Notes: a model not told the origin generated them from the sequence alone. DNA of 64,000 nucleotides from Polyangia bacterium (GCA_030429545.1 JAUIFF010000001.1:147599-211598), one strand, 5' to 3'; shown: positions 6,327 to 56,337, counted from the first letter of the stretch. Numbers and translations are program-made.

Positions 6327-8738
6327 GTGACTGATAACGTCTCACATTCCGCACCCCCCTCAGACTCTGAACCCGTTGAACTGCCTCCGGAACTTTCCCT
6401 GCTTCCGCTGCGCAACTCGGTTTTATTTCCCGGCTCGATCATCCCTATCGATGTGGGCCGGCCCAAGTCGGTCCGCCTGATCGAAGAGGCCATCGCCAAC
6501 GAACGGCCGATCATCGGGATCGTCGCCCAAAAGGAAGCCCGCGTCGAAAACCCCTCGCGCGACGACCTGTTCAGCGTTGGCTGTGCAGCTCGGATCCTCA
6601 AGGTCATCAAGCTGGCGAAGGATAACTACAGCGTCATCCTCCAGGGGGTCGCCCGGATCCAGCTCGACGAACTCGTCGCCGAGGAGCCGTTTTTACAGGC
6701 TCGAGTCACAGAGATTCCCGACATCCATGTCGACCGCGCCGAGTCCGAGGCTCTCGTCCTCAACATCAAAGACACGGCCAAACGCCTGATCGCCCTGGTC
6801 CCCGAGCTTCCCCGCGAAGCTGCGGCTCTGATCGACAGCGTGTCCGACCCGAGCCAGGTCGCCGACCTCGTCATCAGCAACCTCGACATCGAGACCAGCG
6901 AAAAGCAGGACGTTTTAGAGTCGAACCACGTCAACGAACGCCTGCGTCAGGTGTTGACGCTGCTCACCCGGCAACTCGAGATTCTCAAAGTCCGCGAGCG
7001 GATCAACTCCCAGGTCCAGGAGGAGATGGGCCACAGCCAACGCGAGTATGTGCTGCGGCAACAACTCAAAGCCATCAAGGGCGAGCTCGGTGAGATCGAC
7101 GAAGATGGTGGTGACGTCGAGGAGTTCGACCGCCGGATCAAAGAGGCCAAGATGCCCGAGGAGGCAGAGCGGGCCGCTCGCAAGCAGCTCGACCGGCTCA
7201 AGTCGATGCAGCCTTCGAGTGCCGAGTACACGGTGACCCGCACCTACTTAGAATGGCTCACCGACTTGCCGTGGTCGATCTCTACTGAAGATCAGTTGGA
7301 GATCCAGACCGTTCGCGATGTCCTCAACGAAGACCACTACGACCTCGAAAAGGTCAAAAAGCGGATCCTCGAGTACATGGCGGTGCTCAAGCTCAACGCC
7401 TCAAAAAAGGGTCCGATCCTGTGTTTGCTCGGCCCGCCCGGCGTCGGCAAGACCTCGCTCGGCAAAAGCATTGCTCGGGCGATCGGCCGCAAGTTTGTCC
7501 GGATCTCCCTCGGTGGCGTGCGCGACGAGGCCGAGATTCGCGGTCACCGGCGGACCTACGTTGGTTCGTTGCCCGGCCGCATTGTTCAGGGGCTCAAAAA
7601 AGCCGGCACCAACAACCCGGTGATCATGCTCGACGAGATCGACAAACTCGGGCACGATTTTCGCGGCGACCCGGGTGCGGCACTTCTCGAAGTTTTAGAC
7701 CCCGAGCAAAACCACACGTTCAGCGACCACTACCTCGAAGTCACGTTTGACCTCTCGCGGGTGATGTTTATCGCCACCGCCAACTACCTCGATCCGATTC
7801 CGCCGGCCCTCAAGGACCGTTTGGAAATCCTCGAGTTGCCCGGCTACACCCGCCAGGAAAAGCTGGCGATCGCCCGCCGGTTTTTGTTGCCTAAGCAAAT
7901 ATCGGAACACGGACTGCTCGATCACAGCGTCGAAGTTACGTTTGCCGACGAAGCCCTGTTGGAGCTGATCGACAGCTACACCCACGAGGCTGGCGTTCGC
8001 AACTTAGAGCGCGAGATAAGCTCAGTGATCCGCGGGATCGCGGTCAAGGTTGTCGAGGGCGAAGTCGGTAAGCAGATCGCGGTCGTCCGCGACGACATCC
8101 CCGGCTACCTCGGTCCGCAAAAATACCTCTCGGAGATGGCCGAACGGACAGCCGAACCTGGGGTTGCCACTGGACTTGCGTGGACACCCGTCGGCGGCGA
8201 GATCATGTTTGTCGAGGCCACCCACATGCCGGGCAAGGGCGGCTTGATGCTCACCGGACAACTCGGCGACGTCATGAAAGAGTCGGCCCAGGCGGCGATG
8301 AGCTACGTCAAGAGTCGGCACGCCCAACTCGGCATCGAGCACAGCCAGATCGAGGGCCACGACATCCATGTCCACGTGCCAGCGGGTGGGATCCCCAAAG
8401 ATGGTCCGTCTGCCGGTGTGGCGATGTTCTCGGCGATCGTTTCGCTACTCACCAAAACCTGCATCCTCCCCGATGTCGCCATGACCGGCGAAATCACCCT
8501 GCGTGGTCTCGTGCTACCGGTTGGCGGGATCAAAGAAAAGATGCTGGCGGCCCACCGTGCCGGTATCAAGCACATCGTGCTCCCCGAGCGAAATGCCAAG
8601 GACGTTGTCGACGTACCCGAGGAGATCCGCGAGGAGATGCAAATCAGCTACGTCAAGAACGTCAACGAGGTGCTCGACAAGGTGCTCGACCGCGGCTCGT
8701 CTGAACAGGCGTCGAAACCGGCCGAATCGGCGGATTGA
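6327..8738 (+). CDS. lon: ATP-dependent Lon protease
   Basis: 803 aa. N-terminal LON domain (LPLLPLRNSVLFPGSIIPIDVGR), AAA+ Walker A GPPGVGKTS, C-terminal protease domain with the catalytic PKDGPSAG serine motif. Confidence 0.95.
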   Translation: MTDNVSHSAPPSDSEPVELPPELSLLPLRNSVLFPGSIIPIDVGRPKSVRLIEEAIANERPIIGIVAQKEARVENPSRDDLFSVGCAARILKVIKLAKDNYSVILQGVARIQLDELVAEEPFLQARVTEIPDIHVDRAESEALVLNIKDTAKRLIALVPELPREAAALIDSVSDPSQVADLVISNLDIETSEKQDVLESNHVNERLRQVLTLLTRQLEILKVRERINSQVQEEMGHSQREYVLRQQLKAIKGELGEIDEDGGDVEEFDRRIKEAKMPEEAERAARKQLDRLKSMQPSSAEYTVTRTYLEWLTDLPWSISTEDQLEIQTVRDVLNEDHYDLEKVKKRILEYMAVLKLNASKKGPILCLLGPPGVGKTSLGKSIARAIGRKFVRISLGGVRDEAEIRGHRRTYVGSLPGRIVQGLKKAGTNNPVIMLDEIDKLGHDFRGDPGAALLEVLDPEQNHTFSDHYLEVTFDLSRVMFIATANYLDPIPPALKDRLEILELPGYTRQEKLAIARRFLLPKQISEHGLLDHSVEVTFADEALLELIDSYTHEAGVRNLEREISSVIRGIAVKVVEGEVGKQIAVVRDDIPGYLGPQKYLSEMAERTAEPGVATGLAWTPVGGEIMFVEATHMPGKGGLMLTGQLGDVMKESAQAAMSYVKSRHAQLGIEHSQIEGHDIHVHVPAGGIPKDGPSAGVAMFSAIVSLLTKTCILPDVAMTGEITLRGLVLPVGGIKEKMLAAHRAGIKHIVLPERNAKDVVDVPEEIREEMQISYVKNVNEVLDKVLDRGSSEQASKPAESAD

Positions 8739-9024: not shown

Positions 9025-10944
<1,920 letters not shown>

Positions 10945-15481: not shown

Positions 15482-15640
15482 GGGGCTGCAAAGCAGCGAA
15501 TGAGCCGACAACCCGAGCCATAGCCAAACCGCGATGCGTGTGTTGATACAAGTTGTTGTCACGTCATCGGTCGGCTGACGTGGCGAGCAACCGGCGAGCG
15601 CTCCTTGTCGGGTCGACGCCATCCGGCGAAACTACAGCCC

Positions 15641-16426
15641 ATGCCTGCGCCGACCTGGTTTTCGAGCAATCCCGACCGCGCCTGGGGTGAGCGCTTTTTC
15701 CTTATCTACTCGCCCATCTGGATCGTGGCCGTGGCGGCGATCATGCTCAGCGGTTGGGTCCTCAAGTTGCAAGATCTCGGCTTACTTGTGTTTGCATCGA
15801 TCGTGGCGGCGCCGCTGGTTGGCTACCCGTTGGTGGCCCGGCGCAACAGCGGGGTCGTGTGGTTTCAAAGCTACTGGTTTCGCTTCAATCTGTGGATCGC
15901 AATCTATGTGTTTGCCGGCTCGTACATCGGTAGCCACTATTTTTTTGATGTCCTGGGGATGCGTTACGCGTTTGCGTGCACGTGGACGCTCGAGGCTGCG
16001 TTGGTGGGGCAGGGCAGTGGCGAGGTCCCCATCTTTTTATATGTACTTACACAGGCCTACTTCGTTACCTACCACACCATACTCGTGCTGGTGATGCGTC
16101 GACTCGAGCGGGCGACCGGCGGTAGCCGGGTGGCATTTTGGGTTGGCCTGCTGTTTGTCGCCTATGCGGTGGCCTACGCCGAGACCCTGTTTATGGCCCA
16201 TCCGAGCCTTGCCGACGTGTTTTGGTACGAGGAGCGCGGCGAGATGCTGCGCTACGGTTCGATCTTTTATGCGACCTACTTCCTCGTTAGCGTGCCGTTT
16301 TTGATGCGGCTTGGCGAGGGCGAGCCGGGCACCTGGCCCGTCCGTCGGGTGGTGTGTGAGGCCCTCGCTGCCAGCATGCTGATGTTTTACGCCCTCGACT
16401 TTTGGGCGCTACTCGGACTGTTTTGA
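15641..16426 (+). CDS. Polytopic integral membrane protein, function unknown
   Basis: About 7 hydrophobic helices, rich in Trp/Tyr/Phe (YWFRFNLWIAIYVFAGSYIGSHYFFD). Start uncertain (15605 or 15641). Confidence 0.45.
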   Translation: MPAPTWFSSNPDRAWGERFFLIYSPIWIVAVAAIMLSGWVLKLQDLGLLVFASIVAAPLVGYPLVARRNSGVVWFQSYWFRFNLWIAIYVFAGSYIGSHYFFDVLGMRYAFACTWTLEAALVGQGSGEVPIFLYVLTQAYFVTYHTILVLVMRRLERATGGSRVAFWVGLLFVAYAVAYAETLFMAHPSLADVFWYEERGEMLRYGSIFYATYFLVSVPFLMRLGEGEPGTWPVRRVVCEALAASMLMFYALDFWALLGLF

Positions 16427-16482: not shown

Positions 16483-16514
16483 TAAAAAATGCCGCGACTG
16501 ACGCGGCATTTGTT
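16483..16514. terminator. Bidirectional intrinsic terminator between convergent genes
   Basis: aataaaaaATGCCGCGactgaCGCGGCATttgtt: an 8-bp perfect stem flanked by an A-run on one side and a T-rich run on the other. Lies between the 16426(+) and 16528(-) gene ends. Confidence 0.7.
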
Positions 16515-16527
16515 CAACATGTTGTAG

Positions 16528-16995
16528 CTACATGCCGAGAATACGAAACTTCGGGTCGTCGATTTCGGCATCTTGAGCGTACTTGCGGGCGGCCTGGCGA
16601 ATGAGCGCCTTGAGGTCCTCCCACCGCCACGGCTTGGTGACGTACTTCCAAATCAGACCCTCGTTGAGTCCGCGAATCACCACGTTGATATCGGAGTAAC
16701 CGGTAATCAAAATCCGGATGGGCAGCGGATTGATCTTTTTGAGATGTGTGAACAGCTCGACGCCGGTCATCCCGGGCATCCGCTGGTCGCTAATGACGAG
16801 GTGAATCTCGTGCTGCTTGAACAGCTCGAGTGCGTCCTGGCCACTATTTGCGGTGTAGATAGTAAAGATCCCGCGGAAGCCTTCTTCGAGCGATGCAATA
16901 ATCCCGCTCTCGTCGTCGACGATAAGAAGCGACAGCTTGGGGCCCTTTTGGTCCTTCTTGACCTGACCTGTTTTTCGGAATTCCTTCCAACCCAC
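16528..16995 (-). CDS. Single-domain response regulator (CheY-like receiver)
   Basis: 155 aa. LLIVDDE, phospho-acceptor-region DQRMPGMTG and conserved K (KP) of a REC domain. No output domain. Confidence 0.85.
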   Translation of the reverse strand: MGWKEFRKTGQVKKDQKGPKLSLLIVDDESGIIASLEEGFRGIFTIYTANSGQDALELFKQHEIHLVISDQRMPGMTGVELFTHLKKINPLPIRILITGYSDINVVIRGLNEGLIWKYVTKPWRWEDLKALIRQAARKYAQDAEIDDPKFRILGM

Positions 16996-17027
16996 GGGTG
17001 CCTCCTCAAGTTGCTGTGGTGAAATGC

Positions 17028-18410
17028 CTAAACATAGCGAAAAGTTGATGAGAAATGGCGGATCCCTGGTGCCTCTACATCAAAGCACAGTCCGCGGCGT
17101 TGCGACGAGCCTTTTTCTTCGTACACCGTCCGAACAACGTCTGCGACGTACTCTAGGTGCTCAAAGGTATAGGCCCGCCGGGGAATGGTGATCCGGCAAA
17201 GGTCCATTGCCGGGCGAATGTTCTCCCCGGTGTCGGGGTCGCGACCTATCAGACACGAACCGACTTCGACGCACCGGATGCCGCCTTCTTTATAAAGCTC
17301 GACACACAGTAGCTGGGCCGGGAACTGGTCCTGGGGGACGTTGGGGAAAAACCGGCGGGCGTCGATGAACACGGCGTGGCCGCCAATCGGATGGACGATG
17401 GGTACGCCAAAGGAGTCGAGTAACTCACCTAGGCGCCGAACCTGTCCGATGCGATAGGTCAGGTAGTCGAGGTCAACGACCTCTTTGAGGCCCTGGGCAA
17501 GTGCCTCCATCGCGCTGCCCGACATGCCGCCGTAGGTGTAAAAACCCTCAAACAAAATGGTCGGGGTTTTGACCCGCTCGTACAGCTCTTCGGATTCACG
17601 GATGCCAATAAATCCGCCGATCGGAACCAGGGCGTCCTTTTTCGAAGACATTGTACATGCATCGGCATGCTTGAACATCTCGCGGACGATGTAGGGGATC
17701 GGCGTGTCGGCGAACTCCTCTTCGCGGGTTTTGATGAAGTAGGCGTTCTCGGCAAAGCGGGCGGCGTCGTAGACAACCGGCAACCCGTATTTGTTGGCCA
17801 GTGCCCGGACGTCGCGGAGGTTTTGCATCGAAACCGGCTGGCCGCCCCCGGAGTTGCAGGTGATGGTCACGAGGATGTAGGCGACGTGGCGCGCCCCGTA
17901 CTCGCGGATGACCGCCTCGGTTTTTTCGATGTCGATGTTGCCCTTGAAGGGGTGGTCCCCCTCGGAGCGACGACCGGCGTCGATCGTGCAGTCGATCGCG
18001 CGACCCCCCGAAAACTCGATGTGGGCCTTGGTGGTGTCGAAGTGCGAGTTGCCCGGGACGATCTGGTTTTTCTTGATCATCACGAAGTTCAACACCTGCT
18101 CCGCGGCACGCCCCTGGTGGACAGGAATCGTGTAGCGAAAGCCCATGGTCTCCATGACCTGCCGCTCCATCGCCCGAAAGGAGCGCGAGCCGGCGTAACT
18201 CTCGTCGCCGTTCATCGAGCGTGCCAGCTGCATGGCCGAGATGGCCCCGGTGCCGCTGTCGGTCAAGAGGTCGATGTAGACATCTTCGGCGTCGAGCTGA
18301 AACACGTTGAGCCCAGCCGCCGAAATCTTCTTGTTTCGCTGCTCGAGCGACGGGAGCTTGAGCGGCTCGATGACCTTGGCCCGAAACGGGATGATGGTCC
18401 TCTTCGACAT
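17028..18410 (-). CDS. tnaA: Beta-eliminating lyase family: tryptophanase or tyrosine phenol-lyase (PLP-dependent)
   Basis: 460 aa, full-length and colinear with the TnaA/TPL family (typical ~456-471 aa). Tryptophanase and TPL cannot be told apart by eye. Gene symbol is tentative. Confidence 0.7.
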   Translation of the reverse strand: MSKRTIIPFRAKVIEPLKLPSLEQRNKKISAAGLNVFQLDAEDVYIDLLTDSGTGAISAMQLARSMNGDESYAGSRSFRAMERQVMETMGFRYTIPVHQGRAAEQVLNFVMIKKNQIVPGNSHFDTTKAHIEFSGGRAIDCTIDAGRRSEGDHPFKGNIDIEKTEAVIREYGARHVAYILVTITCNSGGGQPVSMQNLRDVRALANKYGLPVVYDAARFAENAYFIKTREEEFADTPIPYIVREMFKHADACTMSSKKDALVPIGGFIGIRESEELYERVKTPTILFEGFYTYGGMSGSAMEALAQGLKEVVDLDYLTYRIGQVRRLGELLDSFGVPIVHPIGGHAVFIDARRFFPNVPQDQFPAQLLCVELYKEGGIRCVEVGSCLIGRDPDTGENIRPAMDLCRITIPRRAYTFEHLEYVADVVRTVYEEKGSSQRRGLCFDVEAPGIRHFSSTFRYV

Positions 18411-20425
18411 CAGTTTGCCTGCTCCTTCGCTTCAACCGTATCGGGCGCGGGGGCCGAACTTGGGATTTGAATCGTAAACACTGTACCCCCACTCTCGCGA
18501 CGTGCCGCCCATATCTTACCGCGGTGTTCTTGGATAATGCGATAGCTGATCGACAGTCCGAGTCCCGTACCTTTACCCACCGGCTTGGTCGTAAAAAACG
18601 GGTCAAAGATTTTGTTGATGTGCTCTTCGTCGATGCCCGAACCATTGTCGAGCACCTGTATTTGCAGCCAGTCGTCGATGCGTCGCGTGATGACTTTGAC
18701 TTCGCCCCAGCGGTCGCAGGCATCGATGGCGTTGTTGACCAGGTTGAGCACGACCTGGTTGAGTTTAGCCGGGAAGCACGGATAGGGGCGGTCGAGTTGC
18801 AAGTCGTCGAGGACCGAAACCGAGGCGTCCTTGGCGACCTTGCGCAGAATCATGAGGGTCTGGCGGATGCCCTCGTCGATGTCAGCTTCCTGAAACGAGG
18901 CCTCGTCTAGGCGCGAAAAGTTTCGTAGACCGAGGACAATCTCGGCCATGCGATCGAGCCCGACCATGCTCTCCTCTAGTAGTTTGTCGACACGGCCTAA
19001 AAGGATGTTGACGGGGTCGCCCTCGGCTTCGGAGCGCTGGGTGACGTAGTCGAAAAACTCGCGCAACAAACCCTCACGTGCATCTTCGGGCAGGTCCTCG
19101 AGTTCGTAGCGAACAGACCGCACATCGTCGCTGTAGGTGGGGTTGCCCACAAGCCGGTCGAGGAGATCCAACCCGGCCTGATGTCGCGCACCGGCCGGAA
19201 TCTCTTCCTGATTTTCGAGCCATGTCCGAATCGACAGGCGAAGTTCGGCCATCTTGAGCCGCTCGCGTGCGAGCTGGGTGTTGTTGCGACTAAACGCCAG
19301 CGGGTTGTTGATCTCGTGGGCGACACCGGCGGTCAGCTGCCCGAGGCTCGCCAACTTCTCGCTTTGGACCAGTTGCGCCTGGGTGCTCTTGAGCTCGTCG
19401 ATGTTCGACTCGAGCCCACGCAACAACAGGTTGTTTTGCAGGGCGATGGCTGCCTGCGAGGCCAGGGATGTCGCAAACTCCTGGGAACGCTGGTCAAACG
19501 GCAGGACCGCGGTCTCAACGTTTTCGTGGGTGAGCTTGATGTGCCGGTCGGTCTTGCGGTTGATCAGCTGCAACACCCCGATGGTTTCATCGCGGTGGTT
19601 TTTCATTGCCAATACAAGCATCGAGCGGGTGACATAACCGGTGTTGATGTCGAACGCCGGGTTGAAGCTGTAGTCGGCACTGGGATCGATGTTGTAGGCG
19701 TCGGCGATGTTGAGTGGGACACCGGTGACCGCGGCATAGCCCGCGAGCGTCTGCCGGTTGATCGGCAACGTAAACTGCTTGAGGGTGGGGGTCTCGATCG
19801 AATCGTTTTGCGCCACCGAAAATCGCAGCCGGCGTTCGCCGTCGGCATCGCGCTCGAGCACGTAGAGGCTGCCGGCATCGGAGCAGGTGAACTCGCGGAT
19901 CGTTTGTAGGATCAACGTCAGCAGGCTGTCATGGTCGTGCTCGGTCGACAGCGCAATGCCGATGCGATTGAGCTCGTGGATCTCGTGGCGACGCAGGTCG
20001 AGTTCGTCGTCGAGAATACGGTAGCGGCTGAAATGGGCGAGTTCGCGGACGGCACAGCGCAGTACCCCTGCGAGGTTGTCCCGCGACGTCTCTCCCCCGC
20101 GCCAGGTGACCAGCCCATCGGGAATACCGAGGGTGCCGATGCGTTTTGGGTTTTTGAGGAGTGAAACAACACGCACCGGGCCGACCGGATTGAGACTGGC
20201 CAGTGCCTGGCGGCCGGTATCACCGGATTGGTTGATGAGTGCGTCGTCGACCAGCAGCAAGATGGCCTGCGCATCGCCGAGTTCGGCGAGACATCCCGCG
20301 AGTTCTCCGGCCCCCACCGGACGCCGATCGAGCCCGAGTCCCTCGAGTGCTCCGGCGTCGGGAGATTGGTCAAAGTCGGTTGCGTAGACGGCTACCGGAC
20401 GGTTGGGGTCGTGACGGGACGACAT
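18410..20425 (-). CDS. Cytoplasmic sensor histidine kinase with GAF domain
   Basis: 671 aa, no TM segment. Central GAF-like region, HisKA ([13 protein letters not shown]) and HATPase_c ([35 protein letters not shown]). Stop overlaps the tnaA-like start by 1 nt. Confidence 0.85.
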
Positions 20426-20569
20426 GAATTGCTGTTCTTATACACCAGTCACCCGCGGTCTGGAGCCCCCGGTCCGGTGTGTGAAGGGCAACACCTGTGC
20501 AGGTTCGCCCGGTGAAAACCGCCCGGCCTGCGCAGTTGTTGCGTGCACCTGCAAGGTCGCGCACACAAC

Positions 20570-21784
20570 CTACGTCGACCCGACACGCGCGCGGGCCGGA
20601 CGGACTTTGGCATCGACCCGCAGCCCGTTGTCGAGCCACCTGCGCGCAGCCTGTTGCCCGGCTTCGTACATCGACAACAGCGCGTTGCGCTCGAAGTAGA
20701 GGTACGACCCGGCGTTGAACAGCGCGCTCGAGTTCGGCCGGATCGGGGTCAGGAGTTCGACCCGCGACAGACCTTCCTCGAGCAACCTGTCCGCAAGTTC
20801 GTTGCGCGCCAGCAGCAGTTTGCGATCGATGGTGTAGGCATTTTCCAGCAGGGTGTCGACGAGTCGCTCGAGCGCGTTGCCAAAGCTGTGGAGTTTGCGG
20901 TCTGGATTGCCCTTAACCGTGACCAGCACCGGCACGATCCGTTTGGCCCCGAGCGCAACCACGGGCGCCATCGGCGAATTGACGAGTAAGCCACCGTCCC
21001 ACAGCGTGTCACCTTGTATCTGCACAGGGTTGAACAACAGCGGAATCGAGGCGCTGGCAACCAACATGTCGAGGGTCAAAACCGGCTCGTAGCGATAGTG
21101 TTTGACCGTGGCCTGGGGCCGTTTGCGGGGCGGGTGGTTGACGATCCGCACCACTTCGCCGGTGGCGGCATTGACCGTGTTGATCGCCAGCTTCACCCCC
21201 GTCTGCACCAGCCGGTTGGCACCGAGTGCACGGGCGAGGCGATCGCGAAATGGGGCTGTGTCGAACAGGTGGGTGGTGGCGATGCCGTCGAGGACTTCGC
21301 TAAAGTTGTCGAACCGGGCGGTCAGCAAAAACTCGAGCGCAAGTGCATACTGTCCGGAAGTTCGGTGCCAGCGGTGCTTTCGCAACAGGTCGCCAAAGAT
21401 CCGAAACTCCCGGCGCCGACGCTTGATCCCCCGCAGCGGTTCGCGGACCGCGATCTTTGCGAGCGTTGTCCACAGGCTGCTAAAGAAGGTCGCGTTGGCG
21501 CGGATCGGCGGGCTGTCGGCGATGTCGAGCCAAAACTCGAGGATGTCCTCGGGGCTGAGGCCGGCCGCAATCAGGGCGCCGTTGAGGGCCCCGGCCGAGG
21601 TTCCGCTGATCGCGGTCGGCAGGGCGCCATCGAACCCACGTGGATCTTCGTGGAGGACTTTCCATACGCCGACTTGAAAGGCCCCGCGCGCGCCTCCGCC
21701 TGACAAAACCAGCCCGGTGGGCATGCCGTGGCGCGGATGTAAATTTGGGGTACCAGACAGGGGTAGCGAATTCGCATCGGGCAT
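20570..21784 (-). CDS. Patatin-like phospholipase
   Basis: Track ORF to 22063 probably over-extended; start refined to MPDANS (21784) or MPTGLV (21724). GGGARG oxyanion motif and GTSAG (GxSxG) nucleophile elbow. Confidence 0.75.
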   Translation of the reverse strand: MPDANSLPLSGTPNLHPRHGMPTGLVLSGGGARGAFQVGVWKVLHEDPRGFDGALPTAISGTSAGALNGALIAAGLSPEDILEFWLDIADSPPIRANATFFSSLWTTLAKIAVREPLRGIKRRRREFRIFGDLLRKHRWHRTSGQYALALEFLLTARFDNFSEVLDGIATTHLFDTAPFRDRLARALGANRLVQTGVKLAINTVNAATGEVVRIVNHPPRKRPQATVKHYRYEPVLTLDMLVASASIPLLFNPVQIQGDTLWDGGLLVNSPMAPVVALGAKRIVPVLVTVKGNPDRKLHSFGNALERLVDTLLENAYTIDRKLLLARNELADRLLEEGLSRVELLTPIRPNSSALFNAGSYLYFERNALLSMYEAGQQAARRWLDNGLRVDAKVRPARARVGST

Positions 21785-21882
21785 CGACAACGCACACCAT
21801 ACAGCCTGCGGCGCGCGTTGTCTCGGTTCGCTCGGGTCGCTTGGACTCGCCCCTACTTCGACCGGGCTGATAGGGTGGGTGG

Positions 21883-22920
21883 GTGAACAACCCCGTGCGC
21901 CCAGCCGATCCCGACGCGATCCGTGAAGCGGCGGGACTGTTGCGGGCTGGAGCACTGGTCGCGTTTCCGACGGAGACGGTCTACGGCCTCGGTGCATGTG
22001 CCCTCGACATCCGCGCGGTCGGGCGGATCTTTGCCGCCAAGGGACGGCCGCCCGACAATCCATTGATCATACATGTTTCGTGCCTCGACGACATCACCCC
22101 CGAGGTTGCCTCGGTGCCGGAGGTTGCCAAACAGCTGGCGGCCAGGTGGTGGCCTGGCCCGCTCACGCTGGTGATGCCGCGTGGACCCCGGGTGCCGGAT
22201 ATCGTCACCGCCGGGTTGGCAACTGTGGCCGTGCGGGTCCCGGCCCATCCGGTTGCGCTCGAGCTGCTGCGGGCAGTGGGCGCGCCCGTGGCTGCGCCAT
22301 CGGCAAATCGCAGTGGACGGCCCAGCCCGACCCAGGCGCAACATGTGGCCGACGACCTCGGCGACCGGGTGGCGATGATCCTCGATGGCGGGGCGACCCA
22401 GGTCGGCATTGAGTCAACGGTTTTAGATGTCACATCAGACAGGCCGATGATCCTGCGCCGCGGCTCGGTGACACTCGCAGATCTCGAGTCGTGCCTGGGT
22501 GTGGGGGCTGTCGACTCGGTGAACATACACAAAGATCGGGAGGCGGCCCGTCGCTCCCCCGGCCTGCGCCATCGCCACTACGCACCGACGGCCAGCGTGA
22601 CCCTGTGCCAACCCAAAACGGCCGAGGCACTTGCAAGCGAAGCGTTGCGGCGGGGCGAGATCGTGGCCGTACTGATCCGCGGCGAAGTAGGCCAGACCAC
22701 CCTGTGTTTGCCGGAGAGGTTAGACAAAGAGCGGACCAACCGGGTGCTCATGCCCCACGCTGCGATCGACTACGCCCGCGAACTGTTTGGCTGTTTGCGG
22801 GCGCTCGACCGCCTAGGGGCCGGGGCCCTGTTTATCGAAGAAGTGCCCCGCGATGGGCTCGGCGGGCCGATCATGGACCGTCTCGAACGTGCCGCCGAGG
22901 GCAGTGGCCAGCCGCGTTGA
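21883..22920 (+). CDS. tsaC: L-threonylcarbamoyladenylate synthase (Sua5/YrdC type, with C-terminal Sua5 domain)
   Basis: 345 aa. YrdC-fold N-terminal half (LVAFPTETVYGLGACA, SANRSGRPSPT) plus a Sua5 C-terminal extension. Confidence 0.85.
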   Translation: MNNPVRPADPDAIREAAGLLRAGALVAFPTETVYGLGACALDIRAVGRIFAAKGRPPDNPLIIHVSCLDDITPEVASVPEVAKQLAARWWPGPLTLVMPRGPRVPDIVTAGLATVAVRVPAHPVALELLRAVGAPVAAPSANRSGRPSPTQAQHVADDLGDRVAMILDGGATQVGIESTVLDVTSDRPMILRRGSVTLADLESCLGVGAVDSVNIHKDREAARRSPGLRHRHYAPTASVTLCQPKTAEALASEALRRGEIVAVLIRGEVGQTTLCLPERLDKERTNRVLMPHAAIDYARELFGCLRALDRLGAGALFIEEVPRDGLGGPIMDRLERAAEGSGQPR

Positions 22921-33297: not shown

Positions 33298-36279
33298 GTG
33301 ATCCGCGTGATGCCAAACGATGTGATGCCCATGGCAACAAGCTCGAAGAAGTCTTCCGCGAAAAAGGCCACCAAGAAAGCGGCCAAGAAGACCGCCAAAA
33401 AGAAGGCGGCCAAAAAGACGGCTAAGAAGAAGACCGCAAAGAAAAAAACGGCCAAGAAGAAGACCGCAGCCAAGAAAAAGACTGCGAAGAAAAAGACGGC
33501 CAAGAAAAAGACCGCAGCCAAGAAAAAGACGGCGAAGAAAAAAGCGGCCAAGAAGACCGCCAAGAAAAAGGCGGCCAAGAAGAAAACCGCGAAAAAGAGC
33601 TCGAAGTCAGCGGTCGGCAAACAACTGGTCATCGTCGAGAGCCCCGCCAAGGCGAAAACAATCAACAAGTACCTCGGCAACGACTTTGTTGTGCAGGCCT
33701 CCGTCGGGCATATCCGCGACCTCCCAGCCCGTGCGCCAAAGGGCAGCAAGATGCCGGTGCCCGGGGTCGACCTCGAAAACAACTTTGAGCCGACCTACGA
33801 GGTTTTGCCGAGCAAGACCAAGACCGTCAACGAGCTCAAGAAGCTGGCAAAAAACGCCGACGAAGTGTGGTTTGCCACTGACCTTGACCGCGAAGGGGAG
33901 GCGATTGCCTGGCACCTGTCGCAGGAACTTGGGATCGATCCGTCGGCGGCCAAGCGCGTCGTGTTTAACGCGATCACCGAAGAGGCTGTCACGCGGGCTT
34001 TTGCCAAACCCCGGGCGATCGACGAGAACAAAGTCAATGCCCAGCAGGCCCGGCGAATCCTCGACCGCCTCGTCGGCTACCTAGCCTCGCCGCTGCTGTG
34101 GAAGAAAGTGGCCCGCGGACTGTCGGCCGGTCGCGTGCAGTCGGTCGCCGTGCGTTTGATTGTCGAGCGCGAACGCGAGATCGACGTGTTTGTCCCGTCC
34201 GAGCGCTGGCAGGTTACGGCCCGGATCTGCAGCGACCCGAGCCAGAGCACCGCCCTCGCCAAGGCCTGGTCGGAGTTCATCGCCACTGTCGACGAAAAGG
34301 GAAGGGCGCCGACCAACAAACGCCGGAACGCGTGGATGGCCAAACAACATGCCCTCCGCGCTGAGCTGCACGAGTTTGAAGGAAAGCGGTTTTCGCTTGG
34401 GTGCCCGGCCGATGACCCCAAGGACCTGTCGGCCGAGATCAAGCGCATCGCCGAGGCCGTTGGGCTCGACGACGTCGCGGTGGTGACAACCGAGGATGAG
34501 TCGGGCAAGGGGCCGGCCAAGTACAAGCGCGTGGTGGTTGGCAAGCCGCTGGCGACCGCCCGCTACCAGGTCGATGCGATCGAAACCCGCAAGACCTCAT
34601 CGCGCCCGTCCGCACCGTTCATCACCTCGAGCCTGCAGATCGCAGCTTCGACGCGCCTGGGCTTTGCCGCCCAACGGACCATGCGAACGGCCCAAAGCCT
34701 GTACGAAGGCGTGGCGATTCCGGGGGCGGGCCAGGTCGGTCTCATTACCTACATGCGTACCGACTCGACCAACCTGTCCGGAGAGGCACTCGGCCAGATC
34801 CGCGAGTTTATCACCAAGACCTACGGCGACGAGTTTTTATCGGCCAAGCCCAACGTGTTTAGTTCGTCCAACAAGGACGCACAGGAGGCCCACGAGGCGA
34901 TTCGCCCGACCGATGTTTCCCGCACCCCCGAGTCGGTTCGCTCGGCCCTCACCGAAGAACAGTTCAAGCTCTACGACCTGATCTGGCGGCGGACCGTGGC
35001 TTCGCAGATGCCCCCGGCGCAATGGGACGCGACCAGCGTGTTTTTTGTCCGCAGCGACAAACCGACCAAGGTTCGCCTCAAGTGCACCGGCCGCTCCCTC
35101 GCCTTCGCCGGCTTTTACAAGGTTGCCGGTGTGCCGATCGACTCCGACGAGCAGACCCTGCCGGCCTTCCAAAAAGGCGACACGCTCGGTCTGTTTACCG
35201 TCGAGCCCGAGCAAAAGTTTTCAAACCCGCCGCCGCGCTACACCGAGGCTTCGCTGGTCAAAACCCTCGAAGGCGAGGGGATCGGCCGGCCGTCGACCTA
35301 CGCCTCGATCATCCAGGTCATCCAAGATCGCAACTACGTCGAGCAACTCGATCGCCGGTTTTATGCGACCGACTTGGGAGAGGTCGTCACCGACAAACTC
35401 GTCGAGGCGTTCAACGAGCTCATGAACGTTGGCTACACCCGCGAGATGGAGCAACAGCTCGACGGGATCGAGGCCGAGGGCAACGACTGGAAGCGGATGC
35501 TCGAGAAGTTCTACAAAGTCTTCTCGCGCGACCTAGAGACCGCCCACGAAAACCTGACCCACGCCAAGGCCGAAACCCAGCAAGCGCCCTACGCCTGTCC
35601 CAAGTGCGGGTCGCCGACCTGCTACCGGTTTGGCAAAAACGGTCGTTTTCTGTCGTGCACCGCCTATCCCAAGTGCGACTACGCGGCCCCGATCAACCGC
35701 GAGGGCACGCCGTTGCTACCGGAGCACGTCGACATCGTGTGCCCCGACGACGGCTCTGAAATGGAGTTGCGAAGCAGCCGCTTTGGCCCGTTTATCGCCT
35801 CGGTCAACTACCCAAAGACGGTCTTCGTGATCAACCTCGACCGCAAGGGCAACATCAAATACCCGGCGATTCCCCCGTATGTCACCGAGCTAGAGTGTGA
35901 AAAGTGCGGGGCCCCGCTCAACCTTCGCAACGGCAAACGCGGCCCCTGGCTCGGTTGCTCCAAGTTTCCGAAGTGTCGCGGGCGCAAGAGCTGGAACTCG
36001 CTCGACGACGAAACCAAGACCGAACTTGTCAACGCCTTGACCGAGCACGAAGCCAAAAATCCCCGCCCCGAGTTGCGGCGGCGGGACGGCTCGATCATCC
36101 CCGAGGGCACACCCGCCCAGGACCTCGCGCTACCAGGCCGCGAGGTTGAGCTCCAGATCCATCCAGACTGGGATGCCGACAAGGCCGAGCAAGAAAACGC
36201 GAAGGTCCCAGCCAAAGCCATCGCCCAGGCACGGGCCCAAGCGCAGTCGCAGCAACAGCAGCAACACGCCTCGACCTAG
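33298..36279 (+). CDS. topA: DNA topoisomerase I with N-terminal Lys-rich (AKKT)n extension
   Basis: TOPRIM start (KQLVIVESPAKAKTINKYLG), catalytic domain and C-terminal zinc ribbons (CPKCGSPTCYRF..., CEKCGAPL...). Residues ~14-105 are AKKTAKKKTAKKK repeats. Start at 33298 or M12 at 33331. Confidence 0.9.
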   Translation: MIRVMPNDVMPMATSSKKSSAKKATKKAAKKTAKKKAAKKTAKKKTAKKKTAKKKTAAKKKTAKKKTAKKKTAAKKKTAKKKAAKKTAKKKAAKKKTAKKSSKSAVGKQLVIVESPAKAKTINKYLGNDFVVQASVGHIRDLPARAPKGSKMPVPGVDLENNFEPTYEVLPSKTKTVNELKKLAKNADEVWFATDLDREGEAIAWHLSQELGIDPSAAKRVVFNAITEEAVTRAFAKPRAIDENKVNAQQARRILDRLVGYLASPLLWKKVARGLSAGRVQSVAVRLIVEREREIDVFVPSERWQVTARICSDPSQSTALAKAWSEFIATVDEKGRAPTNKRRNAWMAKQHALRAELHEFEGKRFSLGCPADDPKDLSAEIKRIAEAVGLDDVAVVTTEDESGKGPAKYKRVVVGKPLATARYQVDAIETRKTSSRPSAPFITSSLQIAASTRLGFAAQRTMRTAQSLYEGVAIPGAGQVGLITYMRTDSTNLSGEALGQIREFITKTYGDEFLSAKPNVFSSSNKDAQEAHEAIRPTDVSRTPESVRSALTEEQFKLYDLIWRRTVASQMPPAQWDATSVFFVRSDKPTKVRLKCTGRSLAFAGFYKVAGVPIDSDEQTLPAFQKGDTLGLFTVEPEQKFSNPPPRYTEASLVKTLEGEGIGRPSTYASIIQVIQDRNYVEQLDRRFYATDLGEVVTDKLVEAFNELMNVGYTREMEQQLDGIEAEGNDWKRMLEKFYKVFSRDLETAHENLTHAKAETQQAPYACPKCGSPTCYRFGKNGRFLSCTAYPKCDYAAPINREGTPLLPEHVDIVCPDDGSEMELRSSRFGPFIASVNYPKTVFVINLDRKGNIKYPAIPPYVTELECEKCGAPLNLRNGKRGPWLGCSKFPKCRGRKSWNSLDDETKTELVNALTEHEAKNPRPELRRRDGSIIPEGTPAQDLALPGREVELQIHPDWDADKAEQENAKVPAKAIAQARAQAQSQQQQQHAST

Positions 36280-42149: not shown

Positions 42150-45100
42150 TCAAAACTCGCCAGGCTGCCAGTCGAGCTCCGCAGACGAGTTGGCTTCGGG
42201 GTTGACTGTTTGGACCAGTAGCGATGCGGTTGCGCCCACCAGTGTGCTGCCCGTGAGTCTGAGCGGTGACCTTCGTCGCCGCGTCTGTGTCATTTTTGTT
42301 CGTTCCGAAGTGTGCACAGTGAGTTGTTCTTCGAGGACTGGCTCGCCAGTGTCAAAAACGACAGCTCGTTCGAGCTCGAGGACCCATTCGGAGTGTGGAG
42401 GTTGGTAGTGCACCGTTCGCGTAAAGGTTGCCGGGCGGACACAGCCCTCCTGCGTAGGTGTGGCACCAACGACTAGCTCAGGGGTGTAAAGCTTCTCGCC
42501 GCTTCGCACGAGCAGGGTAAATTCATCACGGCATCTCGTTGTTGCAAGTGCATCGATGCATCGACGTGTCGAGAGCACAAAGTAGTCGGCAGACTGACCA
42601 GGAAAGAACTCGATTGCGGTCACTGCGGCAGCCGCCCGCATCGAACCTAACGCGCGTACTCGAAGCTCGCGCGACGAAACCTCAACCAGCGCGACTGGGC
42701 CGAGCCCCTCACCGTGGATTGTTGCCAACTGGAGCCATACCAATTCAAGCCCGGGAGCTGCGTGTGAGCGGGTAACCCGACTGGACTTTTCGATACCAAC
42801 TTCGGGGTACTCAAACTCGATGTTGGGGTCGCAGGTGTCGGTGGGTGCAGGCCACACAAACAGCTCTCCAGTACAGTCCAACAGTTTTCCGGGAGCAGAC
42901 TGAAACTGACCGTGGGTTTCCGGGTAGCTGCGCGCAAGCAGTTCGTACCAGTGTGTATCTACAATATCGTCCGAGCTCTCGGGGAGCGTATGGGCAAACG
43001 TGAGTTGGCAAAGAGGGGCGTTCGTCGGCTGGCTCGGCGGCGGGGAGCAAGCTGCAAGGACCATCAACAGGAACAACAAGATCGCCGCGGGAAGGTTCTT
43101 ACCAGTAGGAGCGGGTGTGTTTGCGAACTGTGTCGGTGATTGTTGTTCGCTATCTGGCACCCTCCGCGTGCCGAAGTCGGCAGGCTCTACAGGTGTTTTT
43201 GGAGATTGTGTCGGGGGTGCATCTTGGACACTCGGTCTCCCAAATGTGACGTGCTTTACGGGTATGTTTAGGGGTTGTGTCGGGGGCTCGTCTCGAACAC
43301 TCGGTCTCCCGAATATGACAGGCTTTTGCGGGAACTGTGTCGGAGGTTCATCTCGAAGGTTCGGTCTAGCGAATGTGACAGGTGTTACTAGGGGTTGTGT
43401 CGAAGGTTCACCTCGAACACTCCGTCGAGAGAATGTGACGGGCTTGACAGGTGTCTGCGGGGACTGTGTCGGAAGTTCATCCCGAACTCTCGGTCTCCCG
43501 AAGGGCTGGACAGGCTCGACCAGGGTTTGTGTGACGTCTCCTGTCGGGAGACTTACTTTGGAGCGTTGTGGTGGGGCACCGGGGGGCTGAACGGGCTCGA
43601 CCAGAGTTTGTGTGGCGTCTCCTGTCGGGGCACTTACTTTGGAGCGTTGTGGTGGAGCACCGGGGGACTGGACAGGCTCGACCAGGGTTTGTGTGACGTC
43701 TCCTGTCGGGCCATCTACTTTGGAGCGTTGTGGTGGGGCACCGGGGGACTGAACGGGCTCGACCAGAGTTTGTGTGGCGTCTCCTGTCGGGCCACTTACT
43801 TTGGAGCGTTGTACTGGGCCGCCGGGGGGCGGGTGCCACACCTGTGGGTGCTCGCCATCTGCAACCTCCCCAAGTGTTTGAGTGACATCGCCTGCGGCCG
43901 TCGTGTCGTGGGGGCGATCCGGCAGCAGGCAGGCAGGTCGCTTGTGGGTTACCGAGTCTTCGCCTGCGGTGCGTGGGCGGTGAGCGAGGTCGCCAACCGA
44001 AACCGGCAAAAACCGACGGGAGTCAGTCGTGTGGTACAAACGCCCGCAGATCGAAGTATATGCATTTGCAAAGTTTTTGCCAAGGAGTGCACGGTTGAGC
44101 TCCTCGTCCTGCAGTAGTTGGGCAAGCCGACGCTTAAACAGTGCCCAGCGGGCGTGCACGCGCAATGGCCAGAGTTTCCATGGAATCGTCAGTCGCCCAA
44201 GTCGAATCGCGGTTTTTCTTAAACGCCTATCGAGGGCCTTGGGTGACAAACTGTTGAGCACTGCCCGAACGCTTCCCCGCAACCCTCCCAGCAACCCTAG
44301 CTGATGGGCCATCAGGGTTTTGTAGGCTTGATTCAGTGCTTGCAGTCGCGGAGCATTGGTACCCTTAGGATCGTATAAATAGCGTAGGACATCGTTGGGG
44401 TCCTTGGGGTGGGCAAGCGGGTTATTTGCCTGAAATGGCACAACATGGGCATGCCCGTGGGCGAAGTCGATAGCTCCATCGTGCAACCCGACCAGTGCCC
44501 GAGCGTGGGCACGGGCAACTGTCACAACCCGGGTTACAAACGCCGCAATTTCATCGGAGGTTTCGAGGTTTGTCTGATTCCCGGTGAGCTCGCGGGCAAG
44601 CCAGCGTAGCGCACGTCCCGAAACGACATCTCGGTGGTGCGTAAATCCGGTTGCTTCGGGGCGTGAGCGACTTGGACCGCTTGGACCACTTGGACCGCTT
44701 GGACCACTTGGGCCACGACACGGGCCCATCGAGCGAAAGGCCGGTTCTTTCGCCAGGACCGGAAGCGACTGGCGAAGTTGGGTAAAAACCTCGTGTTGCT
44801 GCGCAGGCGTCAAGTCTGCAGTTTGCTGCCGAAGTTTGGCCAAAAGTTGTTCGCAAGCTCCAAGATACTCATTGTAAAGCGGGGTGAGAGTCTCCAGGAT
44901 GCTGGCGTTCGTTCGCGATGGACGACGCCATACCGTTGTCGGTTGGGCTTCGCAGTGCACGTCGGATGGGCTGGGTTTGTCCGTCGACCACAGCATCGTT
45001 GGCTCGCTGGGCTTCGGCGCACCCATTGCCGAGCGGAGCTCCCGTTGCAGGCGTTGCGCATGGCAGTTTTCATTGGCCGTAAGCAGCTCGCCCGGCCCCA

Positions 45101-45401: not shown

Positions 45402-45403
45402 CG

Positions 45404-46288: not shown

Positions 46289-46293
46289 GTTGA

Positions 46294-48353: not shown

Positions 48354-48385
48354 GGGAAAAAGAGGGCCGGCTGGCCCTCCAATGG

Positions 48386-48883: not shown

Positions 48884-49077
48884 GGGAGAGTGATGATTCA
48901 GGTGCTTGAAGGTGTCAAACAAAAAATCCGAACTTTTTGATGTCCTAGATGCCGTCCTGTATTCGGGACAACGGGCCAGCGCTCCCTGATGAGGTGTGAG
49001 GTGATGTTTATAAGTGTTTGAAAATATAGAATTTGAATCTTGGTTTGAGAGTTGCTTGCATGGAAGTGGAGCAGACA
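48884..49077. promoter_or_regulatory. Divergent T6SS promoter region (hcp operon leftwards, tssJ operon rightwards), locally AT-rich
   Basis: 194-bp intergenic region between divergent operons. GC content visibly lower (tgtttgaaaatatagaatttgaatcttgg...). Confidence 0.5.
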
Positions 49078-50848: not shown

Positions 50849-50865
50849 AGGAGATCGGGGATGCA

Positions 50866-51504: not shown

Positions 51505-51512
51505 AGACAACG

Positions 51513-55734: not shown

Positions 55735-55746
55735 TTGGAGAAAGTA

Positions 55747-56265: not shown

Positions 56266-56337
56266 GCGTAGGTTCTCTGAACGTCGCGGTGTGGAACATG
56301 CCGCAGATATTCCCAACCAGAATCTTTGGAGCGTGAT

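What the first reader, a model, noticed from the sequence alone, without database searches (positions are those of the whole stretch)
16528..20425. GAF sensor kinase, tryptophanase/TPL-family lyase and stand-alone receiver encoded as one overlapping operon
A PLP-dependent beta-eliminating lyase (the indole- or phenol-forming family) is sandwiched between a cytoplasmic GAF-HisKA-HATPase kinase and a CheY-like single-domain regulator. The kinase stop overlaps the lyase start by 1 nt, the regulator is 33 nt downstream, and a bidirectional terminator follows. In enterics tnaA is controlled by the TnaC leader peptide, not by a two-component system. Here the gene order suggests a signalling module in which a small-molecule product (indole or phenol) and phosphotransfer are co-regulated. 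This is of interest because myxobacterial development uses diffusible signals.
Basis: partly seen in the sequence, partly recalled or inferred. Interest (0 to 1): 0.5.

Follow-up and report, generated by a model that had tools for sequence, protein, structure and literature searches.

The report
Tryptophanase gene inside a two-component operon
In a group of myxobacteria (Nannocystis and relatives), the gene for the indole-forming enzyme tryptophanase always sits between a soluble sensor kinase gene and a small receiver protein gene, which suggests that indole production is tied to a dedicated signalling pair, an arrangement not described before and testable in a cultured species.

Summary
Three minus-strand genes encode a soluble GAF histidine kinase (18410-20425), a beta-eliminating lyase (17028-18410) and a stand-alone receiver (16528-16995). 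The kinase stop and lyase start share one base, a 32-nt gap precedes the receiver, and one strong terminator follows.

The lyase is a tryptophanase, not a tyrosine phenol-lyase. All five residues that separate the two enzymes are of the tryptophanase type.

The window comes from a Nannocystaceae (Myxococcota, Polyangia) genome. The same kinase-lyase-receiver order occurs in 21 other loci, including the complete genome of cultured Nannocystis pusilla. The flanking genes are otherwise unrelated, and the kinase stop overlaps the lyase start in 16 of the 21. Four lyases of the same clade and all 66 outside it lack the linkage.

Full-length kinase relatives, and most receiver relatives, sit on contigs that also carry the lyase. 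The sensor part of the kinase differs between lineages. The kinase core (with a helical insert), the lyase and the receiver are constant.

In Nannocystis proper, a TrpB-like enzyme and tryptophanyl-tRNA synthetase flank the cluster.

How the module works is inferred, not shown. It is a new variant built from known parts, of moderate interest.

The parts
18410..20425 (-). Soluble sensor histidine kinase, 671 aa: receiver-like domain, coiled coil, GAF, DHp with helical insert, catalytic domain
   Evidence: Pfam GAF/HisKA/HATPase_c; AlphaFold2 model, mean pLDDT 84.8; no TM segment; orthologs 49-86% identical in Nannocystaceae
20096..20395 (-). N-terminal (beta-alpha)5 receiver-like domain of the kinase (residues 11-110), probably a pseudo-receiver
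   Evidence: Secondary-structure order in the model. D60 sits at the phospho-acceptor position and is >=90% conserved, but the acidic pair, T/S and K are not conserved. The domain is absent from the shorter kinases of other Polyangia.
19436..19936 (-). GAF domain (residues 164-330), most similar to the cGMP-binding GAF-A of PDE5
   Evidence: Pfam; PDB sequence search E 2e-18 to PDE5 GAF-A, also CyaB2, PDE2A and PDE10A GAFs; FD..TGY.T.S segment conserved
18908..19408 (-). DHp (dimerisation/phosphotransfer) helices, residues 340-506, with H-box AHEINNPL (His370, codon 19316-19318)
   Evidence: HisKA hit; invariant His370 block; helices 312-404 and 472-506 in the model
19013..19213 (-). About 65-residue three-helix insert at the tip of the DHp hairpin (residues 405-471), specific to this kinase family
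   Evidence: Helices 411-426, 432-444 and 447-468 in the model. The insert is conserved, including in the short kinases (L425, D434, F457, Y460 invariant). Pfam HisKA matches only the first helix.
18458..18892 (-). Catalytic ATP-binding domain (residues 512-656) with N, G1, F and G2 boxes
   Evidence: HATPase_c E 3.4e-27; invariant NLVNNA, DxGx[15 protein letters not shown]
18408..18430 (-). Kinase stop / lyase start junction: GAAGGAG Shine-Dalgarno inside the kinase gene, then TGATG (1-nt overlap)
   Evidence: Sequence; overlap of 4 nt or 1 nt in 16 of 21 related loci
17028..18410 (-). Tryptophanase-type PLP-dependent beta-eliminating lyase, 460 aa
   Evidence: PF01212; NCBIfam tryptophanase subfamily NF009709, 636 bits against a cut-off of 285; specificity residues D125 F290 V381 V383 H452 and PLP-Lys K258
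16996..17027 (-). 32-nt spacer carrying the GAGGAGG ribosome-binding site for the receiver gene
   Evidence: Sequence; no terminator-like site here
16528..16995 (-). Stand-alone receiver (155 aa) with conserved N-terminal motif M-G/S-W-K-x-F-x-K-T-G and no output domain
   Evidence: Pfam REC only; D27, D28, D70, T98 and K121 conserved in 20 orthologs; nearest NCBIfam model is the REC of HD-GYP phosphodiesterase regulators
16487..16511 (-). Intrinsic terminator ending the three-gene unit
   Evidence: 10-bp stem, 6 G-C pairs, loop of 5, TTTATTT tail
20426..20569 (-). 144-nt region upstream of the kinase gene, presumed promoter region; the last ~35 nt (GTGACTGGTGTATAAGAACA...) are conserved with the closest relative
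   Evidence: Sequence; alignment with L005; no sigma-70 consensus match on this strand

Best explanation
This is a conserved three-gene operon specific to Polyangia. A tryptophanase (L-tryptophan -> indole + pyruvate + ammonia) is made together with a dedicated cytoplasmic phosphorelay.

Shown from sequence: the enzyme has the tryptophanase active site. The kinase has every catalytic motif, and the receiver has every phospho-acceptor residue. The genes overlap or nearly abut and end at one terminator. The trio is kept together across lineages while everything around it changes.

Inferred: a cytoplasmic cue acts on the kinase. In Nannocystaceae the cue would be read by a PDE5-like GAF domain, possibly binding a cyclic nucleotide. 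In other lineages a different GAF reads it. The cue sets autophosphorylation at His370, and the phosphoryl group passes to Asp70 of the receiver. The receiver has no DNA-binding or enzymatic domain, so it must act by binding another protein.

My preferred reading is that the phosphorelay gates indole output, or the cell's response to it, at the protein level. The co-encoded, translationally coupled tryptophanase is the most likely partner. The direction of control is not established: the relay could act on the enzyme, or a metabolite of the enzyme's reaction could act on the relay.
For: Gene identities.

Tryptophanase-type residues: D125, F290, V381, V383, H452, against the tyrosine phenol-lyase set T, M, M, R, F (discriminating residues from PMC5805759).

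Catalytic motifs of the kinase and receiver are conserved.

One transcription unit: 1-nt overlap, 32-nt gap with an SD, single terminator.

Conservation: the same order occurs in 21 other loci. Fourteen are species-level genomes of Nannocystaceae and relatives. The others include N. pusilla CP185339.1 and more distant Polyangia/'Deltaproteobacteria' MAGs with 64-68% lyase identity.

The kinase stop overlaps the lyase start in 16 of 21 loci.

Flanks of 11 representative loci share essentially nothing.

Reverse association: all full-length kinase relatives are Nannocystaceae, and those that could be checked are lyase-linked. At least 20 receiver relatives sit on contigs of the same length as lyase or kinase hits.

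Tryptophan context in Nannocystis proper: amino-acid carrier, TrpB-like enzyme, then the cluster, orf127, TrpS.
Against: No experiment exists, and there are no transcript data.

The receiver's target is unknown.

The kinase sensor domain is not conserved across lineages, so no single ligand can be inferred.

Four lyases of the same Myxococcota clade are not linked to the pair, so the enzyme can work without it.

A 69%-identical receiver paralog with the same N-terminal motif lies away from any lyase, next to a REC-GGDEF-EAL gene. The receiver subfamily is therefore not exclusive to the enzyme.

The lyase scores below the NCBIfam equivalog cut-offs for TnaA, so its substrate is predicted, not proven.

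In Nannocystis proper the lyase-receiver spacer is 127-232 nt, which leaves room for a separate promoter there.
Confidence: 0.6

Rival explanations
1. Autocrine indole (or tryptophan) signalling cassette. Tryptophanase is the signal synthase. The kinase is the receptor for indole, tryptophan or a derivative. The receiver carries the output to motility, development or c-di-GMP turnover. This would be a synthase-receptor pair encoded together, as in quorum-sensing loci.
For: The synthase gene lies between the sensor and receiver genes in every linked locus. Indole induces sporulation in the myxobacterium Stigmatella (Gerth 1993 and Stamm 2005, as cited in PMC3126691). A receiver paralog lies next to a GGDEF-EAL gene. 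The receiver's REC is closest to those of HD-GYP c-di-GMP phosphodiesterases.
Against: The GAF domain resembles cyclic-nucleotide-binding GAFs rather than any known indole binder. It is replaced by a different GAF in other lineages that keep the same operon. The kinase is cytoplasmic. No binding data exist.
Confidence: 0.2
2. Co-expression without direct coupling. An ancestral kinase-receiver pair acquired a tryptophanase gene by insertion, and the trio persists because it is induced under the same condition (for example amino-acid catabolism during starvation or predation). The relay does not touch the enzyme or its product.
For: The enzyme occurs without the pair in related genomes. The receiver subfamily has a member elsewhere. 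The sensor domain is variable.
Against: The order with the enzyme in the middle, and the start/stop overlap, persist while the kinase diverges to 34-58% identity and all flanks are replaced. Full-length kinase relatives were not found without the lyase.
Confidence: 0.15
3. The lyase is not an indole-forming enzyme. It would instead be a tyrosine phenol-lyase, or act mainly on another beta-substituted amino acid (for example cysteine or S-alkylcysteines).
For: It scores below the NCBIfam equivalog cut-offs for both TnaA and TPL. PDB tryptophanases and TPLs give similar bit scores.
Against: All five discriminating residues are tryptophanase-type, and none is TPL-type. The clade is sister to Bacteroidota tryptophanases. 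It neighbours a TrpB-like enzyme and TrpS in Nannocystis.
Confidence: 0.05

Closest known systems
Enterobacterial tna operon (tnaC-tnaA-tnaB)
   Same: It encodes a tryptophanase with the same PLP lysine, catalytic residues and indole-specific pocket residues.
   Different: There is no TnaC leader peptide and no room for one, because the kinase stop overlaps the start. No TnaB permease is adjacent. The enzyme gene lies inside a two-component operon. Lyase identity to the PDB tryptophanase chains that HMMER aligned (8sbg, Proteus vulgaris 1ax4) is only moderate.
Bacteroidota/Cloacimonadota tryptophanases (e.g. PDB 8sbg)
   Same: These are the nearest non-myxobacterial relatives, at 52-55% identity, and form the sister group in the neighbour-joining tree.
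   Different: None of the 66 non-myxobacterial loci examined has the kinase or receiver next to the lyase.
Tyrosine phenol-lyase (Citrobacter/Erwinia TPL)
   Same: Same fold and PLP chemistry, with similar overall sequence scores.
   Different: The TPL residues Thr124, Met288, Met379, Arg381 and Phe448 are Asp, Phe, Val, Val and His here.
REC-GAF-histidine kinases and GAF-A of PDE5 / CyaB2 (cyclic-nucleotide-binding GAF domains)
   Same: The GAF sequence is closest to PDE5 GAF-A (E 2e-18) and keeps the FD..TGY.T.S segment. The overall REC-like/GAF/DHp/CA layout resembles dual-sensor kinases such as PDB 6oap.
   Different: The NKFDE motif is only partly kept (N289, R290, F310, E316). The ligand is untested. 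The receiver-like domain lacks the metal-binding pair and lysine. The DHp carries a ~65-residue insert.
Single-domain response regulators (CheY, DivK, Spo0F type)
   Same: It is a stand-alone receiver with all five conserved phospho-acceptor-site residues, and it must act by protein-protein contact or as a relay step.
   Different: It is not in a chemotaxis, cell-cycle or sporulation phosphorelay locus. It carries a family-specific 20-residue N-terminal extension. Its REC is closest to those of HD-GYP regulators and HupR.
Two-component systems reported to respond to or regulate indole in enterics (TorS/TorR on tnaA; CpxA, BaeS as indole-responsive kinases) - from my own knowledge, not checked here
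   Same: They connect phosphorelay signalling with tryptophanase or indole.
   Different: Those are membrane kinases with DNA-binding regulators encoded far from tnaA. Here the pair is soluble, has no DNA-binding output and is encoded around the enzyme gene.

Membership tests
Tryptophanase (TnaA, EC 4.1.99.1) | Beta-eliminating lyase fold with the PLP-binding lysine and catalytic Tyr/Arg/Asn/Asp/Arg set | tested here: met
   PF01212 E 4.8e-75; Y72 R101 F124 N186 D215 R218 K258 R406 aligned with PDB TnaA and TPL
Tryptophanase (TnaA, EC 4.1.99.1) | Five pocket residues that distinguish TnaA from TPL (E. coli D137 F304 V394 I396 H463; PMC5805759) | tested here: met
   Window residues are D125 F290 V381 V383 H452: four identical and I->V conservative. 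P. vulgaris TnaA reads DFVIH.
Tryptophanase (TnaA, EC 4.1.99.1) | Score above the curated family cut-off | tested here: inconclusive
   Above the subfamily cut-off (NF009709: 636 against 285) but below both TnaA equivalog cut-offs (577 < 750; 504 < 826)
Tryptophanase (TnaA, EC 4.1.99.1) | Releases indole from L-tryptophan | not testable with these tools
   Needs an enzyme assay
Tyrosine phenol-lyase | Thr124, Met288, Met379, Arg381, Phe448 | tested here: not met
   Asp, Phe, Val, Val, His at these positions; below the TPL equivalog cut-off (526 < 721)
Enteric tnaCAB operon | TnaC leader peptide with Rho-dependent attenuation upstream of tnaA | tested here: not met
   The lyase ATG overlaps the kinase stop, so no leader region exists. 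No Rfam hit in the window.
Enteric tnaCAB operon | Tryptophan permease gene downstream | tested here: not met
   The downstream gene is the receiver, followed by a terminator
HisKA-type sensor histidine kinase | H-box histidine and N, G1, F, G2 boxes | tested here: met
   AHEINNPL (His370), [26 protein letters not shown], all invariant in 39 homologs
HisKA-type sensor histidine kinase | Autophosphorylation and transfer to the neighbouring receiver | not testable with these tools
   Needs phosphotransfer profiling
Response regulator receiver | Acidic pair, phospho-acceptor Asp, Thr/Ser, Lys | tested here: met
   D27 D28 D70 T98 K121 conserved in 20 orthologs
Cyclic-nucleotide-binding GAF (PDE2/5/10, CyaB2 type) | Sequence membership in this GAF subgroup | tested here: met
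   Best PDB matches are PDE5 GAF-A (E 2e-18), CyaB2 (4e-13) and PDE2A GAF-B (2e-7)
Cyclic-nucleotide-binding GAF (PDE2/5/10, CyaB2 type) | NKFDE motif and nucleotide-contact residues; binding of cAMP/cGMP | tested here: inconclusive
   N289, R290, F310 and E316 are present, but Asp-Glu is replaced by Ser-Gln-Glu. The D259..T262..T266 segment is kept. The role of these residues rests on my memory of the PDE2A structure. Binding was not testable.
Synthase-receptor signalling cassette (quorum-sensing logic) | The receptor binds the product of the co-encoded synthase | not testable with these tools
   Only co-location is shown. The sensor domain varies between lineages.

The most novel reading that the evidence does not exclude
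The trio is a self-contained indole signalling circuit. Tryptophanase makes the signal, and the co-translated kinase perceives indole, tryptophan or the enzyme's activity state, either directly or through a complex with the enzyme that uses the family-specific DHp insert. The stand-alone receiver then relays this to c-di-GMP turnover, motility or fruiting-body development. This would be the first genetically linked synthase-receptor pair for indole. It would also give a molecular entry point to the long-known effect of indole on myxobacterial sporulation.
Probability: 0.15. Interest if true: 0.8.

Novelty: new variant of a known kind. Interest (0 to 1): 0.5.

Why it matters
Indole is a widespread bacterial signal, but how producers control it outside enterobacteria is poorly known, and so is how bacteria perceive it. 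Full-text searches found no paper describing a tryptophanase gene embedded in a two-component operon.

Here the arrangement is conserved across a family-to-class range of social, predatory bacteria. In a relative of these bacteria (Stigmatella), indole is known to trigger sporulation (PMC3126691). The arrangement is also present in a cultured, fully sequenced species, Nannocystis pusilla CP185339.1.

That makes several questions directly testable:
- whether a phosphorelay gates indole production;
- what a stand-alone receiver does to a metabolic enzyme;
- whether a PDE5-like GAF domain ties cyclic-nucleotide signalling to tryptophan catabolism.

If the coupling turns out to be mere co-expression, the finding is an ordinary lineage-specific operon.

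Tried and rejected
1. Metagenome scan with a kinase alignment, meant to find kinase orthologs without a lyase. Only one true ortholog was returned (L089, lyase-linked); the other 79 loci were generic kinases with no lyase. The reverse test therefore rests mainly on the protein searches and on matching contig lengths, which is an inference.

2. Promoter search. There is no sigma-70 consensus match upstream of the kinase and no sigma-54 spacing by eye. Only a 35-nt block is conserved with the closest relative. No promoter is claimed.

3. Rfam on the window and on the N. pusilla locus gave no hits. No tRNAs were found. A T-box or leader in the long lyase-receiver spacer of Nannocystis is rejected, because only the ribosome-binding site is conserved there.

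4. orf127, the extra conserved neighbour, had no Pfam, NCBIfam or PDB sequence match, even with a 12-sequence profile. My impression that it looks like a Roadblock/LC7 fold is untested, and its structure could not be predicted under the tool's input rule.

5. Fold search with the whole kinase model returned only ordinary histidine kinases and phytochromes. It said nothing specific about the DHp insert.

6. TPL identity was rejected on residues.

7. Patatin as part of the operon was rejected. There is a 144-nt gap, and patatin is upstream only in the window and its closest relative.

8. 'Bidirectional terminator' is not supported.
Full report
**Observation.**
- The kinase (18410-20425, 671 aa) has GAF, HisKA and HATPase_c domains. 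It has no hydrophobic segment.
- The middle gene (17028-18410, 460 aa) is a beta-eliminating lyase (PF01212, E 4.8e-75).
- The last gene (16528-16995, 155 aa) is a receiver domain and nothing else.
- The kinase TGA and the lyase ATG share one base (TGATG), and a GAAGGAG lies just upstream.
- The lyase stop and the receiver GTG are 32 nt apart, with a GAGGAGG between them.
- A 10-bp G+C-rich hairpin with a T-run at 16511-16487 is the only minus-strand terminator-like site in the region. The scan does not find it on the plus strand, so 'bidirectional' is not supported.

**What the enzyme is.** NCBIfam places it in the tryptophanase subfamily (NF009709, 636 bits against a cut-off of 285). It falls below the equivalog cut-offs for both TnaA and tyrosine phenol-lyase. 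PDB chains of both enzymes give similar scores.

The five pocket residues that differ systematically between the two enzymes decide the matter. These are E. coli TnaA D137, F304, V394, I396 and H463, against TPL T124, M288, M379, R381 and F448 (PMC5805759). The window protein has D125, F290, V381, V383 and H452. Proteus TnaA reads DFVIH and the TPLs read TMMRF in the same alignment. The PLP lysine (K258) and the other catalytic residues are present.

In a neighbour-joining tree (not bootstrapped), the Myxococcota lyases form one clade next to the Bacteroidota/Cloacimonadota tryptophanases, which include PDB 8sbg. I therefore treat the gene as a tryptophanase. Its activity is predicted, not shown.

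**Origin and conservation.** The same DNA occurs on four assembled contigs from public sequencing runs. The closest genome locus is an uncultured Nannocystaceae MAG with 97% lyase identity.

In a scan of one genome per species, all 14 loci whose lyase is 73-97% identical carry the kinase upstream and the receiver downstream, except where the contig ends. None of the 66 loci with lyases of 55% identity or less does.

Looking up lyases of intermediate identity extended the linkage to:
- four more distant Polyangia or 'Deltaproteobacteria' MAGs (L086, L087, L171, L172; 64-68% lyase identity);
- the CG2_30_63_29 genomes;
- a JGI contig (L089);
- the complete genome of cultured Nannocystis pusilla (CP185339.1).

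That makes 21 loci besides the window. In 16 of them the kinase stop overlaps the lyase start by 4 nt or 1 nt, and in one locus both junctions overlap. The 5 kb on either side of the trio share essentially nothing among 11 representative loci. Selection therefore appears to hold these three genes together and nothing else.

Four lyases of the same clade stand alone, next to a K+ transporter, an MFS transporter, peptidases or a flavin reductase. The linkage is not obligatory for the enzyme.

**Reverse association.** Full-length kinase relatives (49-86% identity) all come from Nannocystaceae. Below that level, only the GAF domain matches (GAF-HD-GYP proteins) or only the kinase core matches. The kinase relatives that could be checked are lyase-linked. 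Several others sit on contigs of exactly the same length as lyase hits, which I take as the same contig; this is an inference.

Receiver relatives with full coverage and at least 48% identity form about 85 clusters, all stand-alone. At least 20 of them share a contig length with lyase or kinase hits.

There is one clear exception. A 69%-identical receiver that keeps the N-terminal motif lies next to a REC-GGDEF-EAL gene with no lyase nearby. It comes from two of the same samples as the window organism.

**Anatomy of the signalling proteins.** The AlphaFold2 model of the kinase (39-sequence alignment, mean pLDDT 84.8) shows, in order:
- a (beta-alpha)5 receiver-like domain (residues 11-110);
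- a long helix;
- the GAF domain (165-306);
- a continuous helix carrying His370;
- a three-helix insert (411-468) at the tip of the DHp hairpin;
- the return helix;
- the catalytic domain.

The receiver-like domain keeps an Asp at the acceptor position (D60). It lacks the conserved acidic pair and the lysine, so it is probably a pseudo-receiver.

The GAF domain is closest to the cGMP-binding GAF-A of PDE5 (E 2e-18) and to other cyclic-nucleotide GAFs. The NKFDE motif is only partly kept.

The kinases of the more distant lineages lack the receiver-like domain and carry a different, degenerate GAF. They keep the kinase core and the DHp insert.

The receiver has all five conserved phospho-acceptor-site residues (D27, D28, D70, T98, K121) and a conserved N-terminal extension, M-G/S-W-K-x-F-x-K-T-G. 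Its REC is closest to those of HD-GYP phosphodiesterase regulators and HupR.

**Extra context.** In Nannocystis proper the cluster reads: amino-acid carrier, TrpB-like PLP enzyme (NF009057, 709 bits), kinase, tryptophanase, receiver, orf127, tryptophanyl-tRNA synthetase. This supports a tryptophan/indole theme. The 127-aa orf127 also lies just upstream of the kinase in six other Nannocystaceae loci. It is absent from the window and has no detectable family.

**How it most likely works.**

Shown: there is a competent-looking kinase, a competent-looking receiver and a tryptophanase-type enzyme in one tightly packed, conserved unit.

Inferred: the unit is one transcript. The overlap couples translation of the enzyme to that of the kinase. 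The kinase phosphorylates the receiver. The receiver, having no output domain, works by binding a protein.

I favour a model in which a cytoplasmic cue read by the variable sensor domain gates indole production, or the response to it, at the protein level, with the enzyme itself the most likely partner. In Nannocystaceae the cue may be a cyclic nucleotide. Confidence is about 0.6 for the functional coupling as a whole and much lower for any single step.

The main rivals are:
- an autocrine indole-sensing circuit (0.2);
- co-expression without direct coupling (0.15);
- a different substrate for the enzyme (0.05).

The variable GAF argues against a conserved product-sensing GAF. It does not exclude sensing through the conserved DHp insert or through a complex with the enzyme.

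**Comparison with known systems.** The enteric tna operon shares only the enzyme. There is no leader peptide, no attenuator and no permease here. I recall enteric two-component systems that respond to indole or regulate tnaA (TorSR, CpxA, BaeS); I did not check these here. They are membrane systems with DNA-binding regulators, encoded away from tnaA. Full-text searches found no paper describing a tryptophanase inside a two-component operon.

**Verdict.** This is a real, conserved and so far undescribed gene arrangement built from familiar parts: a new variant of a known kind. Interest is moderate (0.5), because the biology is open and a cultured host is available. The function is not yet supported by any experiment.

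**Caveats.**
- MAG taxon labels are those of the depositors.
- The tree is neighbour-joining without support values.
- Contig-length matching is indirect.
- The metagenome scan for kinase orthologs was largely uninformative.

Noticed in passing
L169:12357-12740 (N. pusilla); also L013, L014, L016, L064, L089 downstream of the receiver; L007, L008, L010, L011, L012, L082 about 0.2-0.7 kb upstream of the kinase: A 126-127-aa protein (orf127) is a fourth conserved neighbour of the trio in 12 of the linked loci. Its position is either upstream or downstream. It is absent from the window. It has no Pfam, NCBIfam or PDB sequence match, even with a profile.
   Followed up: partly
L169:4402-14032 (also L064, L089, L013-L016): In Nannocystis proper the trio is embedded among tryptophan-related genes. 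An AgcS-type amino-acid carrier and a TrpB-like PLP enzyme (indole-salvage type) lie upstream. Tryptophanyl-tRNA synthetase lies downstream.
   Followed up: partly
L173:5001-5480 and L174:5001-5480: A 159-aa receiver 69% identical to the window's, with the same N-terminal MGWK.FKKTG motif, lies away from any lyase. It sits downstream of a REC-GGDEF-EAL gene and a 433-aa unknown gene. It comes from two of the same samples as the window organism, so it may be a second copy in the same genome.
   Followed up: partly
P0180, P0182-P0186 (843-aa proteins, Planctomycetota and others): GAF-HD-GYP c-di-GMP phosphodiesterase-type proteins carry a GAF domain 41-49% identical to the kinase's PDE5-like GAF, including the [21 protein letters not shown] segment.
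   Followed up: no
L037, L071, L074, L076, L079, L080 (Gammaproteobacteria, Chitinophagaceae, Bacteroidota MAGs): Two beta-eliminating lyase genes sit in tandem. One has the tryptophanase residue signature (D.F/Y...H) and the other the tyrosine phenol-lyase signature (T L/M M R F). These genomes pair an indole-forming and a phenol-forming enzyme side by side.
   Followed up: partly
window 20570-22063 (-) and 21883-22920 (+): The patatin-like phospholipase ORF reads 497 aa from the first ATG, but gene callers give 384 aa on the identical contigs. The longer version would overlap the divergent Sua5/YrdC-type gene, so the N-terminal ~113 codons are probably not translated.
   Followed up: no
window 20426-20470: The 35-45 nt just upstream of the kinase ATG (GGGGGC..CAG.CCGCG.GTGACTGGTGTATAAGAACA) are nearly identical in the window and in L005, while the rest of the intergenic region has diverged. 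This may be a promoter or operator, but there is no consensus sigma-70 match.
   Followed up: partly
window 15605-16426 (+): A convergent 273-aa multi-pass membrane protein has no Pfam or NCBIfam match. Among the linked loci it is conserved only in the closest relative (L005).
   Followed up: no
window 42150-61640: A type VI secretion gene cluster: FHA/TagH-like, TssF, TssM/IcmF-like and VgrG. Elsewhere in the window are Lon protease (6327-8738), DnaK (9025-10944) and topoisomerase I (33298-36279). This is core chromosome, not a mobile island.
   Followed up: no
L014:2196-2427: The 232-nt lyase-receiver spacer of one Nannocystis MAG is made largely of ~35-nt tandem repeats (GATTCGCTCCACGGCGCG.TCCGCGCCT). 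Across Nannocystis only the ribosome-binding site before the receiver is conserved.
   Followed up: partly
L086:8467-9741: An ISL3-family transposase gene lies 0.6 kb downstream of the trio in one distant MAG (GCA_029210625.1).
   Followed up: no
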